DNA from: Octopus vulgaris
Taxonomy: Eukaryota
Direction of reading: 5' to 3'
DNA length: 64,000 bases
NCBI GenBank assembly: GCA_951406725.2
Contig: OX597817.1
Span: 174,034,001-174,098,000 of the forward strand
Shown: piece after piece, positions 1,157-60,431 of the stretch
How the letters are laid out: each line of letters starts with the position of its first letter
Position numbering within the stretch: the first letter of the stretch is position 1
Program-made: the position numbers and the translations under genes
The notes under the pieces: model-generated
What the model was told of the DNA's origin: nothing
The model's database searches: none
Seen by the model: the letters and a program-made list of their open reading frames with translations, nothing else

Positions 1157-1350
1157 AAGTTAATCCAAATAAGAAAGCACAAAAAAACACAACGCGAGGA
1201 CGTGGAACAAATATAGTATTATTGGACACTCAGGAAAGAAGGAGGGTTTAACGTTTCGAGCGGAGCTCTTCGTCGGAAACATAGGAGAAGAAAAGATCCA
1301 GAGAAGGGAAGACAGAGGAAAAAAATCGCCAACGGTACACACGAGGTTAT
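1157..1350 (-). mobile_element. Short non-coding insert with a hammerhead-like motif (Penelope/retrozyme-like)
   Basis: Splits the MITE at a TA-rich site; related copy in opposite orientation at ~29150-29365 and a truncated copy at ~43680-43745. Confidence 0.65.
1246..1280 (-). ncRNA. Minimal type I hammerhead ribozyme motif (U4C core variant)
   Basis: Minus strand GTTT-CCGACGA-A-GAGC-TCC-GCTC-GAAAC-GTT-AAAC: stem I GUUU/AAAC, stem II GAGC/GCUC, palindromic ACGU stem III, GUU triplet. Confidence 0.65.
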
Positions 1351-4300
1351 ATATATATATACTTTTTTGAAACACTGCTTTTGTTTCAGTTAATTTTGAA
1401 TATAACAAATTTCATGACAGTAATTTTGTCATAATTAAGCTGATGTTAATATGAAATTTTGATGGAAGGTTTTAGTTTAGATTGCTTGAAAGCAAGGAGG
1501 TTGTATCATAGATCTATGGGTAGTCTTGAGTTTGGTTGGTATCAAAAGGGTTAAATTTTAGGTCAAAATAAGAAATGTCATCTCAGTTGGCTGTGACAAG
1601 TGTAGTTATGAGCTGTGTTGAAAAGCACTTATGTTGACTTGATTAAAAGTATTTTAATTTTATTCTGATAGCTTCAATCAAATAAGCTTGTTTTCCTCTT
1701 GTCCATCATCAGATTAATTTATACCTGATAAACTCTTTTTTTTTTCTTCATTTAATCATAGCCATGTCTGCATTATTATTGTTAGTAGCAAAGTTTTTTT
1801 TTTTTTTATTTGTTGTACTGATGGCTTTAATATTTTATGGTGCAAACTAAGTTTGTTACAATAACTACTGTAGCTCTTATTCATTGATTGGATGTTCTTT
1901 TTTTTTTTTTTTTTATTCTACTATTTTTGCATTCAGACTGGCCAGATTCAGACTTTCACATCTACCCTACAATGTCATTCTAAAAATAAACACATCATTG
2001 GGATCATGAAGTTATGAGATTGTTGTACAATTAATTTAAAATAATTTAAAACAATGTGAATAGATAAGAATTACATTTGACAGTGTAATCTTAATGCTAA
2101 AGGTTTAAAGGTATGTCTCCCATTTGCCACTGAAAGAGAACTGTCTGCTACTTTATCCCATACTTAACTATTTTGTTACCATATTTCTATTGAAATACTT
2201 TATCTTTGTTTCAATTGAATTTTGAAGAGGTAGAAAATTTAGCAAAAATAACTTGTCATTATCAAAGTAGTGTTTTCAAATGTAAATTAGATTTTGGTGA
2301 CAAGTTCTAATTTAGATCACTTTAAAACAAGAAGTTTGTATTGAGTTAGTATAAATGGTTAATCGTCAGGAATGATCCTCTACCATTGAATCAACTTTGT
2401 CTGTTGATAGAGTTGTGAACTACAAGCTCATTGGTTTTCAGTTTCATTTTACTGCAGGCATTTTGTTGTATATTTGGGAAGTCCACATAATGTTGTGTCT
2501 CAGTTCACCTGTCGGGAACAGGTATAGCATGAACTCCTTGAATTATTACTAAACATTGACTTGCACCTATTTTACACTTCCAGTACCTTTCCATGGTACT
2601 ATATTTCTATTGAATGCCCCCTTTTCTTTGAACACCTTGTGTCTGCCATCAGTGCTCCCCACTTTAAAAAAAAATTTTTATGATCGTATGATTCATAGGG
2701 ACCAAGATTAGAAGCATGTAGGGGTGGCCCTATGTGCCTCTGTTCTTGGTCCCTGTGAATTTTCTCCACTTCTCCTCATCTCTCTATTTCTCATCTATCT
2801 CTGATTGTTCTCTGTCCCCACTTTTTATGTATTACCACCTATTGCCCCCTTGACCTGCTCTTATTTCCCTTACACTCTCCCAAACTGAGATTCATCATTG
2901 TCCTTGTTTTCATCCATGTTCATTCACTGTATTCACCTCTATCCTCATCTCTACTGTCAACTCACTCTCTCTTGAACCTATCTACCTACCCACCCAGTCA
3001 TCCTTGATTCTCTCACCCTGTACTCTATCTATCCATATTCTTATACCTGAGGGTATGCTCTGACTCCTCATCTCCACCATCCTTTGTTTCTTTCCTGCTG
3101 GGGTAGTCGTGTATTTATTTCCTCTACAGCAAGACACCTGTTCCTGTCCCCTGTCATATTTCAGCTGTTCAACACCTGCACAAAACCACCTCCCTCAATT
3201 CTACACCCTAATCTGTCAAAGGCTTTTGTCTAGCATCTTACCTAATGATCTCACTAGAGCTGTGCCACATAAAATCCACCCAATACACTCTATAAAGTGG
3301 TTGGAATTAAAATGGGCATCCAACCATAGAAACAATGCTAAAGTAGACATTGGAGCCCAATGTGACCCTCAGGCTAGTCAGATCCTGTTAAAGCCTTCAA
3401 TCCATGCCAGCATAGAAAATGGAAATTTAATATTCATGAAGAAGATTATGTCATGTACCTCTAAAAACTAGTGTTAGGCATTGACTTTTAAAGACACTTG
3501 AGCTTTGAGACATTTACATTTTGAAGAGTTATGTTATTCAGACAAGTAATTTTCAGTTGCAACTAATAATGTCTGTGGACTATACATACACAGCAGAAAG
3601 TGAACTAACATTGGCTGTGGACAGGATTTGAATTGATATTCAATCAACCAAAAATCTGATATCTTGTTTAGCTCTTTCTTTCCTCTTGGTATTTTTGATT
3701 CAATTTTTCCTTTTGTTAGCTACTATTGATTTAGATTTCCCCAGATTTTCTAATGAGCATTTACATTTAGAGAGATGTTCTGCCTCATATATCAACATAG
3801 CTTCATATTGACAGTTTTATCTTCATTTTGTCAAATATTGTTGTTTAAATACCTACAGATGATACCTAAAAAGCTACTTGATGAGTGTACTAAAGCTTAA
3901 GAAACTCTGTACTTGTACAAACAAAATTAACGGGACTGGTTTGTCATTCACCCATCCTATTATTCCTAAGAGGGCTTGACACTCTATTTTGGTCAGTTGA
4001 GGGAGCTGTCATGGTTTTGATATTAATAGGTCATTCTTTTGTTGCTTTATAGTTTAACTTGGTAATCCTCTTGTTAGCAGATAAAAAACACACAAAAAAA
4101 GCCAAAACAATTTGGTATAAATCTGAACTTGAAGTTATTGTTTGTCTCCATTTCACCAATCTATCTTGAGCTTCACTTTTTTTTTTTGTTACATTCATAT
4201 CATATATATTAGCAATGTTGCCACCAGGAATTTCATTATCTTCCAATTCTGTAGCATATTACATTTTCATTTAGTGTGAATTTTCCAGAATTTCTTTTCC

Positions 4301-4779
4301 AGATTTTTTCTTGTAATTCTAATTATGATTGCATCATTGCACGATATTGATGTTATTATCAGGATTGCATTATTTTCCAGTGTTGACATAATTGCTATGA
4401 TTGCATCATTTACCAGTGTTTATTGGCCTCCCAGAGATTTAATAGTAGATATGATGAAATAAAATGTTTGTTTATAATAATTTCCATTGTAATATTTTCA
4501 AATGCTTTCATATATTCTTAGATTTTTTTGATAACCATCAGATACACAGCTAATATTTTGTAGACATGCTTTTTCTGACACTTAGATTCCCTACAGACTT
4601 TTCCTTTTCATTTGTAAATATTAATATCAAGAAATAATTCAATAGACATTTCTTTGAGACAAACTTGTCTTATACAGTGGTTGTTTTTGTAATCTTCTTT
4701 AAGTGGTTTTGCCTAGAGAAAGTAGCTGTGCCTGTTACTTTCACAAGCTCTCCAAGACTGGTGAGATTGATGGCATTAA

Positions 4780-58200: not shown

Positions 58201-60212
58201 CACATAGTTTTGAATTGATCTTGTAGCTATGAGATTTTGATAACGAAAGTGTTAATTTTCAGAATTATTTTGTAAGGTTGGTGTGAAAGGCCAGATCTGG
58301 CCAGTTTAAATGCTAAAGGGTTGAATTACTATTTTTAATTTTAATCATGTAATAGATAACTCAACATTTTTATGAAATCATAGTCAAATAGTCCACTTGG
58401 CAATTTGTATTTGATCTTTCTGCATGGAATGGTAAACACGTGTCTTCTAGCATAGCTTCAGGTTACCTCAAGCCTTGTTAGACAAATACAGTTGTTGGAT
58501 ATTTAGTAGAGTGGGAATTAGACCTGATCTAATCCCCTGGTGAAATACTTGCTTTTGCATGTCTTCAGTGGAATCTCTTTGTTGTTTGGCCTAATTGTTT
58601 CTGGTCTCTGAGAATGAAGACTATGGAGTTCATACACAAAATCTTTAATCCAGACTCCTCAGTTTATGGTGACCCTTTATTTGAAATTAGACTAAGCCTG
58701 TACTTCACCAAACATAGAACTTTTTTCTTTTTAGTATCTTACCATACAAAAGTCTCTATGTAAAAGGCCACAGTTTTGCCCTAGTGTTTCTTTTTGAATA
58801 TTTATTAAAGAAATTAGAAAACTCAGTAATAGTAAACATAGGGTAAAAACTTGAAAAAATTTTAAGATATTAAACAAGCAAAAAAAAAAAAAGAAGCTAT
58901 GTTTTTATCAAAAGGATATAAAAGAAATAAATGATCAGAATAAAAAAAAAAAAAATGCTGACTAGTTAAAAAATCTGAAGTATATGCTACTCAAAGAATT
59001 TGATTAAAAGTAAAAATATTGAACAACTTTACAATGATATTAAAGCATTGTTTGAATAACAAATCCAAGTGAATGGAACAAGGAAGATTACATTAGAAGA
59101 CTACATTATAGTGGAACAAGGAAGATTACATATTTTGTAAGAGATTGAAAATTTTGTCCTTAAAACATTTCTTATAAAGAAACAGTGCATCTACAGAATG
59201 GAGTCTAAAATCAGAAATTCAAATTCAAAATTTATTAGCATAGTATTCTTAGAAACAATTGCTTCTGCTCTGGCCTCCTTCATAGAAGCCCTTAAACTTG
59301 ATTTGATTATTCTCAGAGTAGGAAAACAGTCTTCCATTACTGTCATTGTTTAAGTTACATTATTAATAGCCTGTTGATATGGAGGAGTGACTTATTCTAT
59401 TGTTGGTCAGTTTTGATGAATGATCATTCTTTTCTAATTTAATCTATTAAAAAACAAAAGAGTTACTGAAATATTTTTTCTATTTGAACAGATTCTGCTT
59501 GTTTTTCCACTTTTAAAAATGACATTGCTTTACTTTTATTTGAATGCCCAAGTCTCATTCCAAGTCTCATTGCCTGGCAATTTGGGCAAGTGCCTTCTAC
59601 TATAGCTCCAGCCTGATCAAGGTCTTGTCAGTAGATTTAGTAGATGTTTTTCATCCTTCTGGTGTCGATTAAATAAGTACCTGTCAAGTACTGTGATAGA
59701 TGTAATCAACTCACTCCCTCCTCTAAAAGTTGCTGCCCTTGTGCCAAAATTAGAAAGAATTATTATCAATATCATCATCATCATTAAGGCGACGAGATGG
59801 CAATCATTAGCACACCAGACAAAAAGCTCAGCAGCATTTTGTCCATCTTTACGTTCTGAGTCCAAATTCCGCCAAGGTCAACTTTGCCATTCACCTTTTT
59901 GGGGTTGATAAAATAAGTATCAGTTAAGCTGACGTAATCAACTTATCTCCTCTCCTGAATTTTCTGAACTTCTGCCCAAATTTGAAAGCATTATTGTTAT
60001 CATTAATGTAGCAAGCTGGCAGAATCATTAGCCTGCTGGATGAAGTGCTTAACAGCGTTTCCTCCATCTATCCGTTCTGAGTTCAACTGCTGTCAGGGGA
60101 CCCAACTTTACCTTTCACCCTTTCGAGGTTGATAAAATAAGTACCAGTTGAATACTGGGGTTGATGTAATCAACTAGTCCCCTTCCCCCAAATTTCAGGC
60201 CTTGTGCCTTTA

Positions 60213-60396
60213 CAGTTCTATATTTAAGAGATGAGGAATTATGTACATTATTTACATTATTTATATTTGACGGATATTTGTCCTCATCTTGTTTGTTGTT
60301 AACACAACGTTTCGGGTGATACACCTTCCAGCCTTCATCAGATGTCTTGGGGGAAATTTCAAACCTGGGTTCTCATTCTTAAGGTATTTTTCGATG
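60213..60396 (-). mobile_element. 184-bp non-coding insert with an 11-bp TSD, carrying a hammerhead motif, inside a family B SINE tail
   Basis: TTGTGCCTTTA at 60202-60212 and 60397-60407; removing the insert restores the SINE tail CCTTGTGCCTTTAGTAGAAAGG. Confidence 0.85.
60301..60346 (-). ncRNA. Minimal type I hammerhead ribozyme motif with a canonical core
   Basis: Minus strand GACAT-CTGATGA-A-GGCTG-GAAGGTGTAT-CACCC-GAAAC-GTT-GTGTT: stem I GACAU/GUGUU, stem II with one C-C mismatch, GUU triplet. Confidence 0.7.
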
Positions 60397-60431
60397 TTGT
60401 GCCTTTAGTAGAAAGGATTATTATTATTATT

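What the first reader, a model, noticed from the sequence alone, without database searches (positions are those of the whole stretch)
1157..60407. Several unrelated ~190-200 bp hammerhead-bearing mobile units: a candidate retrozyme / non-autonomous Penelope system
Seen: inserts at 1157-1350, 22605-22808 and 60213-60396 share no obvious sequence but have similar size, no ORF and one minimal hammerhead each. Each hammerhead has an extra nucleotide after A9 and a loopless or near-loopless palindromic stem III. Two inserts have TSDs and two interrupt other repeats. Penelope RT-region and GIY-YIG remnants lie in the same window. Established: Penelope-like elements and retrozymes carry such minimal hammerheads, which are thought to cleave as dimers. 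Inference: multiple families of ribozyme-processed, possibly circular, RNAs are being retrotransposed as monomers in this genome.
Basis: partly seen in the sequence, partly recalled or inferred. Interest (0 to 1): 0.75.

Follow-up and report, generated by a model that had tools for sequence, protein, structure and literature searches.

The report
Solo Penelope ends with minimal hammerheads
Three unrelated, roughly 190-base insertions around one exon of an octopus heat-shock-factor gene each carry a minimal hammerhead ribozyme motif, and they are likely the stub ends of Penelope-like jumping genes, a pattern published in 2014, rather than copies of ribozyme-cut circular RNAs.

Summary
A (1157-1349), B (22605-22808) and C (60213-60396) each carry a minimal type I hammerhead on the minus strand, with an extra base after A9 and a loopless palindromic stem III. 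B and C have 9- and 11-bp TSDs; A sits in (TA)n. Family A is very high-copy in octopus runs, probably of order 10^4. B and C were not counted.

The circular-RNA reading is not supported. The predicted cut sites are internal, 93, 142 and 93 nt from the 3' ends. A shows no depth step at the cut. No unit is tandem here, and none folds better than its shuffles.

Size (184-204 bp), TSD length, AT-rich targets and hammerhead form all match published Penelope pseudo-LTRs. Best reading: solo pLTR ends inserted by Penelope-like RT/endonuclease from uncut RNA. No autonomous partner was found, and A's 5' boundary was masked, so dedicated unit-length non-autonomous families remain possible.

Oddities: about 74% of family A has a C4 core, B has a G3-C8 core, and all three lie antisense to the HSF exon. 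Verdict: new members of a known kind.

The parts
1157..1349 (-). Unit A: 193-bp pLTR-like insertion in a (TA)n tract; member of a very high-copy family
   Evidence: Sequence; depth of relatives rises from 12.6 on the left flank to 0.67-1.41 million over 1192-1323 in run X3
1246..1280 (-). Minimal type I hammerhead of A; core with C4 (U4 in about a quarter of the family); predicted cut after 1250, 93 nt from the unit's 3' end
   Evidence: variant at 1275, shares
22605..22808 (-). Unit B: 204-bp pLTR-like insertion
22740..22789 (-). Minimal type I hammerhead of B with G3-C8 swapped core and 6-nt palindromic stem III; predicted cut after 22747, 142 nt from the 3' end
   Evidence: stems I and II form in the minimum-energy fold
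22596..22604 (.). Left copy of B's 9-bp target-site duplication
22809..22817 (.). Right copy of B's 9-bp target-site duplication
60213..60396 (-). Unit C: 184-bp pLTR-like insertion that splits a dispersed SINE-like repeat
60301..60346 (-). Minimal type I hammerhead of C, canonical core, one stem II mismatch; predicted cut after 60306, 93 nt from the 3' end
60202..60212 (.). Left copy of C's 11-bp target-site duplication
60397..60407 (.). Right copy of C's 11-bp target-site duplication
18090..18197 (+). Context: exon of the host heat shock factor gene (residues 41-76). No other HSF exon was found in the window, so the units likely lie in its flanking introns, antisense
   Evidence: Pfam HSF_DNA-bind; 36 of 36 residues identical to P0003, named Octopus sinensis HSF
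48170..48830 (-). Context: decayed, frameshifted Penelope-like thumb plus GIY-YIG remnant; not shown to be related to A, B or C
   Evidence: By-eye reading; 5 of 5 recalled motifs in order against at most 2 in 100 shuffles, but motifs chosen after seeing the region; library searches blank

Best explanation
A, B and C are insertions carrying minimal hammerhead motifs, and they are likely solo pseudo-LTRs (3'-end stubs) of three different Penelope-like retroelement families, predicted to have been pasted in by the Penelope reverse transcriptase/GIY-YIG protein from RNA that the ribozyme had not cut. Shown: the hammerhead motifs, TSDs of B and C, AT-rich targets, internal cut sites, and the high copy number of A. 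Inferred steps: (1) the PLE endonuclease nicks AT-rich or (TA)n DNA; (2) reverse transcription starts inside the RNA about 90-140 nt 3' of the hammerhead, which sets the 3' end; (3) it stops after about 190-200 nt, by early 5' truncation or by reaching the transcript's 5' end when it starts in the upstream pLTR of a partial tandem; (4) repair leaves a 7-11 bp TSD. A lone copy has no partner for stem III and is probably inert unless it pairs with another transcript.
For: (1) Hammerhead form matches the PLE minimal type point for point: extra base between 9 and 10.1, G10.1-C11.1 pair, palindromic 15.2-16.2, short stem I (against PMC4209133). That paper says most such motifs are single, dispersed and probably truncated PLEs. 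(2) Lengths of 184-204 bp and TSDs of 9-11 bp match rotifer Penelope pLTRs of 181-218 bp with 8-10 bp TSDs, where solo pLTRs are also reported (PMC3846280). (3) The distance from cut site to 3' end is 93 nt in A and C. In the anole Poseidon element RT starts 111-118 nt into the ORF and the hammerhead cuts at +26, i.e. 85-92 nt by my arithmetic; hammerhead mutants do not affect insertion there (PMC11167929). (4) Family A depth has no step at the cut site: 1.01 million at 1236-1257, 1.41 at 1258-1279, 1.01 at 1280-1301 in X3. (5) A sits in (TA)n, and its own flank contig ends at 1179, so at least one other copy shares the TA-plus-end junction (record 17). (TA)n is the listed target of octopus Hydra and Naiad PLEs (PMC8557442 supplement). 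(6) In organism E the hammerhead part (1236-1279) is laid 3-60 times deeper than the rest of A, so it is the most conserved part. (7) Penelope-like families are recently active in Octopus vulgaris: 31 families, 336 young insertions (PMC13282606).
Against: No autonomous PLE ending in A, B or C was found. The window's own PLE remnant is unrelated to them. Six motifs from the units had 0 hits in the Craig 2021 supplement. Three of three units being 184-204 bp, and near-even depth over 1192-1323 in family A, fit fixed-length units better than random truncation. No continuing N-terminal ORF was seen at the 3' ends, whereas the anole and rotifer pLTRs hold the ORF start. Cut-to-end distances in published Hydra-clade elements vary widely, so the 93-nt match is not diagnostic.
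Confidence: 0.6

Rival explanations
1. They are dedicated, unit-length non-autonomous Penelope derivatives (SINE-like). Each has fixed 5' and 3' ends, is transcribed from its own pLTR promoter or by read-through, and is mobilised in trans by a PLE protein from linear, uncut RNA.
For: Narrow size range across three unrelated units. Family A depth is near-even from 1192 to 1323 with no 5' decline before the masked zone. Copy number is of order 10^4 with mostly 90-99% likeness. Non-autonomous PLEs are known in Chlamydomonas (PMC8557442 passage). Run X10 (type guessed as RNA) holds A about 100 times more strongly, relative to the neighbouring old repeat, than DNA run X3 (5380 against 51).
Against: The same size is expected of solo pLTRs. 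The 5' boundary could not be seen. X10 was chosen because it holds A, is not shown to be RNA, and its variant shares copy those of DNA (1275: 0.27 against 0.26; 1211: 0.17 against 0.20), which does not point to a few master copies.
Confidence: 0.22
2. One reading: these are monomeric insertions of non-LTR retrozymes. Tandem master arrays would be transcribed, cut by dimeric hammerheads, circularised and reverse-transcribed by a PLE enzyme.
For: Size is within the 170-400 nt retrozyme range and TSDs are longer than 4 bp (PMC7229834). A 2026 preprint reports retrozyme families homologous to pLTRs with monomer shares from 0 to 1 (10.64898/2026.07.22.740005). A circle-derived copy need not end at the cut site. 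Five joints and 51 loose ends at the masked repeat were dropped for X10, so a junction could be hidden.
Against: No tandem copy in the window. No end-to-start joint among the 15 of 45 joints shown. No terminal redundancy. Folding z-scores were +1.19, -0.11, -0.79 linear and +1.06, -0.02, -0.17 circular, whereas retrozyme circles are described as highly self-paired. The hammerheads are the minimal PLE type, which that paper separates from retrozyme hammerheads. About 74% of family A carries C4; U4C is reported to lower activity considerably in vitro (PMC3088659), and G3-C8 only partly restores it.
Confidence: 0.13
3. They are SINEs or fragments moved by a LINE (RTE/CR1 type) that merely carry an old hammerhead, or the motifs are chance look-alikes in unrelated repeats.
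For: LINE and Helitron remnants also lie in the window. B has a B-box-like 9-mer on the plus strand. Two of three cores depart from the consensus.
Against: All 3 relaxed-descriptor hits in 64 kb fall inside delimited insertions. Both core changes are of tolerated kinds (C3-G8 pair kept by swap; U4C is a natural variant). No tRNA, no A-box, and no poly(A) or tandem tail at the ends.
Confidence: 0.05

Closest known systems
Minimal hammerheads (min-HHR) in pLTRs of metazoan EN+ Penelope-like elements (Cervera and De la Pena 2014, PMC4209133)
   Same: Type I topology, extra base after A9, G10.1-C11.1, palindromic loopless stem III, many divergent families per genome, mostly single dispersed copies
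   Different: Octopus families are not named in the parts read. That paper reports a U3-A8 core; here B has G3-C8 and most of family A has C4. No link to an ORF is shown here
Solo pLTRs / 5'-truncated Penelope, Poseidon, Neptune and Hydra copies (PMC3846280, PMC11167929, PMC8557442)
   Same: About 180-220 bp length, 8-11 bp TSD or (TA)n target, hammerhead near the 3' end, about 90 nt from cut site to end as in the anole element
   Different: No ORF start seen at the 3' end. The octopus Hydra-1_oBim hammerhead differs and is absent from the window. Clade not determined
Animal non-LTR retrozymes (Cervera and de la Pena 2020, PMC7229834; Li, Clavereau and Pollet 2026 preprint)
   Same: ORF-less, 170-400 nt, low GC, type I hammerhead, TSD longer than 4 bp, likely PLE-mobilised
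   Different: Defined by tandem arrays, usually canonical hammerheads and abundant, highly paired circular RNAs. Here: single copies, minimal hammerheads, no excess pairing, no circle evidence

Membership tests
PLE pLTR minimal hammerhead | Type I core with C3-G8 (or swapped) pair and GAAA | tested here: met
   C canonical, A with C4, B with G3-C8
PLE pLTR minimal hammerhead | Extra nucleotide between 9 and 10.1, G10.1-C11.1 pair, palindromic or absent loop 3 | tested here: met
   3 of 3 units
PLE pLTR minimal hammerhead | Many dispersed genomic copies | tested here: met
PLE pLTR minimal hammerhead | Self-cleavage as a dimer or with protein help | not testable with these tools
   Co-folding favours dimers but the lowest-energy dimers are not shown to be the hammerhead fold
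Solo pLTR of an EN+ Penelope-like element | pLTR-sized unit with TSD or (TA)n target and hammerhead near the 3' end | tested here: met
   against PMC3846280
Solo pLTR of an EN+ Penelope-like element | Same sequence found as the terminus of an RT plus GIY-YIG ORF | tested here: inconclusive
   No genome held; window remnant unrelated; 0 hits in one supplement; protein search of C's open frame blank; 5' side of A masked
Solo pLTR of an EN+ Penelope-like element | Variable 5' truncation and fixed 3' end, with optional 30-40 bp tail | tested here: inconclusive
   Family A depth near-even to 1323; 1337-1372 masked
Non-LTR retrozyme | Head-to-tail tandem repeats with a hammerhead in each unit | tested here: not met
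   None in the window; no back-joint among the 15 of 45 joints shown for A. Arrays elsewhere in the genome are not excluded
Non-LTR retrozyme | Highly self-paired monomer | tested here: not met
   z from -0.79 to +1.19 linear, -0.17 to +1.06 circular, on the hammerhead strand
Non-LTR retrozyme | Abundant linear and circular monomer RNAs ending at the cut site | not testable with these tools
   Only assembled contigs were served; they cannot show RNA ends or strand
Non-LTR retrozyme | No ORF, 170-400 nt, GC under 50%, TSD over 4 bp | tested here: met
   GC 0.42, 0.38, 0.35; 184-204 bp; shared with solo pLTRs, so not diagnostic
tRNA-derived SINE | tRNA-like head with A and B boxes and a simple-repeat tail | tested here: not met

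The most novel reading that the evidence does not exclude
Octopus genomes host several dedicated, fixed-length (about 190-200 nt) non-autonomous Penelope families, at least one with tens of thousands of young copies and strong transcription. In them the hammerhead is kept as a structural landmark rather than a cutter: most of family A has a weakened C4 core, B a G3-C8 core, and the 3' end lies 93 nt from the cut site in two unrelated families, as if the Penelope protein binds the hammerhead fold and starts reverse transcription at a measured distance from it.
Probability: 0.15. Interest if true: 0.55.

Novelty: new member of a known kind. Interest (0 to 1): 0.22.

Why it matters
As it stands it adds three octopus families to a pattern published in 2014, and suggests that some unclassified octopus 'SINEs' may be Penelope ends. 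The role of PLE hammerheads is still open. A young, very high-copy family that segregates a canonical U4 core (about 26%) and a C4 core (about 74%) would be a natural test of whether cleavage helps, hinders or is irrelevant to spread. If tandem masters and circles were found, it would be an octopus retrozyme built on a minimal hammerhead.

Tried and rejected
Genome-wide counting was not possible: no genome is held for this window.

Rfam gave no hammerhead model hit; the 27 matches were miRNA-, snoRNA- and cis-element models scoring below their gathering scores, mostly on microsatellites.

Exact-motif scans for the units: metagenome contigs 0 for A and 1 for C. That one, L001, matches only around the motif in an unrelated coding context and was rejected by eye as chance. 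Genome contigs 0 for B and 0 for A; viral contigs 0 for A.

Protein confirmation of the PLE remnant failed everywhere: Pfam on 292 of 515 open stretches (those of 50+ aa and higher complexity), Pfam and PHROGs at E<=10, phmmer over 1.84 billion proteins (one hit, a repetitive protein with no tblastn match to the window), word search and ESM Atlas. C's open frame had no homologue.

No RNA holder was listed on record; this is no evidence on expression.

Empty site: in organism E a flank contig stops aligning at 1153 and runs 39 letters further, and organism D has no cover on the left flank. No contig joins across A, so this is inconclusive.

Only one unit could be laid on reads, because A and B lie 21.7 kb apart and the limit is one call of 20 kb.

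Earlier-findings look-ups by sequence for A, B and C and by place were empty.

Literature searches for an octopus report: hammerhead+Penelope+octopus (5 papers), hammerhead ribozyme+cephalopod (4), Penelope+solo pLTR (1). None listed describes these families; the giant squid paper only counts 235 Rfam hammerhead loci. Lunse et al. (PMC5785218) is not held; it, Repbase/Dfam, the O. vulgaris repeat library and its supplement (listed, not read) and the closed preprint supplements may already hold these sequences or core variants.
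Full report
Setting. The window is AT-rich, repeat-laden animal DNA (GC 0.31-0.39). It holds one exon of a heat shock factor gene at 18090-18197 (+), identical in 36 of 36 residues to a protein named Octopus sinensis HSF. Residues 1-40 and 77 onward gave no convincing match in the window, so the rest of the window is likely intron. No whole genome is held.

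Observation. A descriptor scan of both strands found minimal type I hammerheads in A and B under strict rules (2 hits, shuffle mean 0.07 in 30). Allowing one mismatch, it found them in A, B and C (3 hits in 64 kb, shuffle mean 0.32, max 3 in 100). All three are on the minus strand, have one extra base after A9, open stem II with a G-C pair, and have a loopless palindromic stem III. C has the canonical core, A has C at position 4, and B has the C3-G8 pair swapped to G3-C8. Rfam did not detect them. The units measure 193, 204 and 184 bp and are essentially unrelated, with no second copy in the window. B and C have 9- and 11-bp direct flanking repeats, rare by chance (0.6% and 0.13% of 1500 random segments). 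Excising C plus one repeat in silico restores a dispersed repeat that aligns across the junction with other copies. A lies in a TA tract. The claim that two units interrupt other repeats held for C only. A decayed thumb-plus-GIY-YIG stretch at about 48170-48830 (-) is visible by eye. Five recalled motifs occur there in order (chosen after seeing the region), but seven library searches did not confirm it. It ends in (CA)n with no hammerhead.

Family A in public runs. Of 24 runs listed for 900-1700, I laid 4 on 950-1600 at 85% likeness or more; all are assembled contigs. In DNA run X3, summed depth is 12.6 on the left flank and 0.67-1.41 million over 1192-1323. The tool warns this is no copy number. 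Allowing 1.5- to 31-fold overcounting by overlapping contigs gives roughly 2,500-53,000 copies. The family is similarly abundant in organism D and present but more diverged in organism E, where the hammerhead bins (37,000-58,000) stand far above the rest of the unit (900-11,000). The window copy differs from the majority at 1228 and 1291, so it is probably young. Position 4 of the core is U in 26%, 24%, 43% and 27% of depth in the four runs; C4 is the majority state. There is no step in depth at the predicted cut (1250). No joint from the unit's end to its start is among the 15 shown of 45. However, 1337-1372 was masked as a repeat, and 5 joints and 51 loose ends were dropped there for X10, so the 5' boundary and any tandem junction remain untested. 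X10, guessed to be RNA, holds A as deeply as X3 but the neighbouring old repeat about 100 times less. It was selected for holding A, may be DNA, and its variant shares mirror genomic ones, so this is only a hint.

Mechanism. The predicted cut sites lie 100/93, 62/142 and 91/93 nt from the 5'/3' ends, so ribozyme cuts did not set the ends of a linear template. No unit has terminal redundancy or inverted ends, is tandem, or folds better than shuffles as a line or a circle. Published PLE biology accounts for the anatomy. Minimal hammerheads with these exact features sit in pLTRs and occur mostly as single dispersed motifs attributed to truncated PLEs (PMC4209133; parts 1-2 of 4 read). Rotifer Penelope pLTRs are 181-218 bp with 8-10 bp TSDs, and solo pLTRs occur (PMC3846280; passages). 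The anole Poseidon protein nicks AT-rich DNA, starts reverse transcription 85-92 nt past the hammerhead cut (my subtraction), and inserts equally well with dead hammerheads (PMC11167929; parts 1-2 of 4). Octopus Hydra and Naiad PLEs target (TA)n, and Hydra-1_oBim has a hammerhead near its 3' end (PMC8557442; passages and part of the supplement), though not one found in this window. I therefore read A, B and C as solo pLTR ends pasted by target-primed reverse transcription from uncut RNA (0.6). The link to an ORF is inferred, not shown.

Rivals. The narrow size range and even depth of A leave room for dedicated unit-length non-autonomous families (0.22). Retrozymes are defined by tandem arrays, mostly canonical hammerheads and highly paired circular RNAs (PMC7229834; passages and section 14). 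A 2026 preprint ties them to pLTRs and counts monomers (10.64898/2026.07.22.740005; parts 1-3 of 5). So the classes are close, but the two defining features I could test here were not met (0.13). A LINE-driven or chance origin is unlikely (0.05).

Core variants. U4C is described as a natural variant with much lower activity in vitro (PMC3088659; passages). C3G/G8C is a partial rescue in the anole element. A search for G3-C8 with 'natural' listed one paper, which I did not open. Whether G3-C8 is the consensus of family B is untested.

Novelty. I found no paper naming these octopus families. The O. vulgaris repeat annotation lists Penelope-like and many unclassified SINE families and never mentions ribozymes in its main text (PMC13282606; part 1 of 3 and passages). 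Other papers seen: PMC6765202, PMC8969392 and PMC6962438 as passages only. Lunse et al. was seen only as a citation. Two earlier scan notes describe similar 180-base solo tails in other genomes; they are unchecked leads, not support. Verdict: real, well spotted, new members of a known kind; interest 0.22.

Noticed in passing
window 1250, 60306 (minus strand): The predicted hammerhead cut lies 93 nt from the 3' end in both A and C, two unrelated families (A's end is uncertain by about 2 nt); B has 142 nt, which could be a similar spacing plus a tail.
   Followed up: partly
window 1275: Family A segregates C4 (about 74%) and canonical U4 (about 26%) hammerhead cores in three runs; U4 is 43% in organism E.
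   Followed up: partly
window 22776-22782 (-): Natural G3-C8 swapped core in B; family-wide status unknown.
   Followed up: no
window 1157-1349, 22605-22808, 60213-60396: All three hammerheads are antisense to the HSF exon (chance 1 in 8), as expected if sense-strand ribozymes in introns are selected against.
   Followed up: no
window 1148-1345, run X10: Family A is about 100-fold enriched over the adjacent old repeat in a run guessed to be RNA, with genomic-like variant shares; unexplained (transcription, enrichment library or drop-out of old repeats).
   Followed up: partly
window 41700-41942 (-): Pif1 helicase 2B domain fragment (Pfam E 1.3e-9), likely a Helitron remnant.
   Followed up: no
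window 43752-44123 (+): Open stretch that reads by eye like the start of a LINE apurinic endonuclease; no Pfam hit.
   Followed up: no
window 18197-64000: No further HSF exon found in more than 45 kb, so the intron after this exon is very long.
   Followed up: partly
window 59650-60208: The repeat that C interrupts is itself present as a partial tandem (about 220-240 bp period), with many other copies in the window.
   Followed up: no
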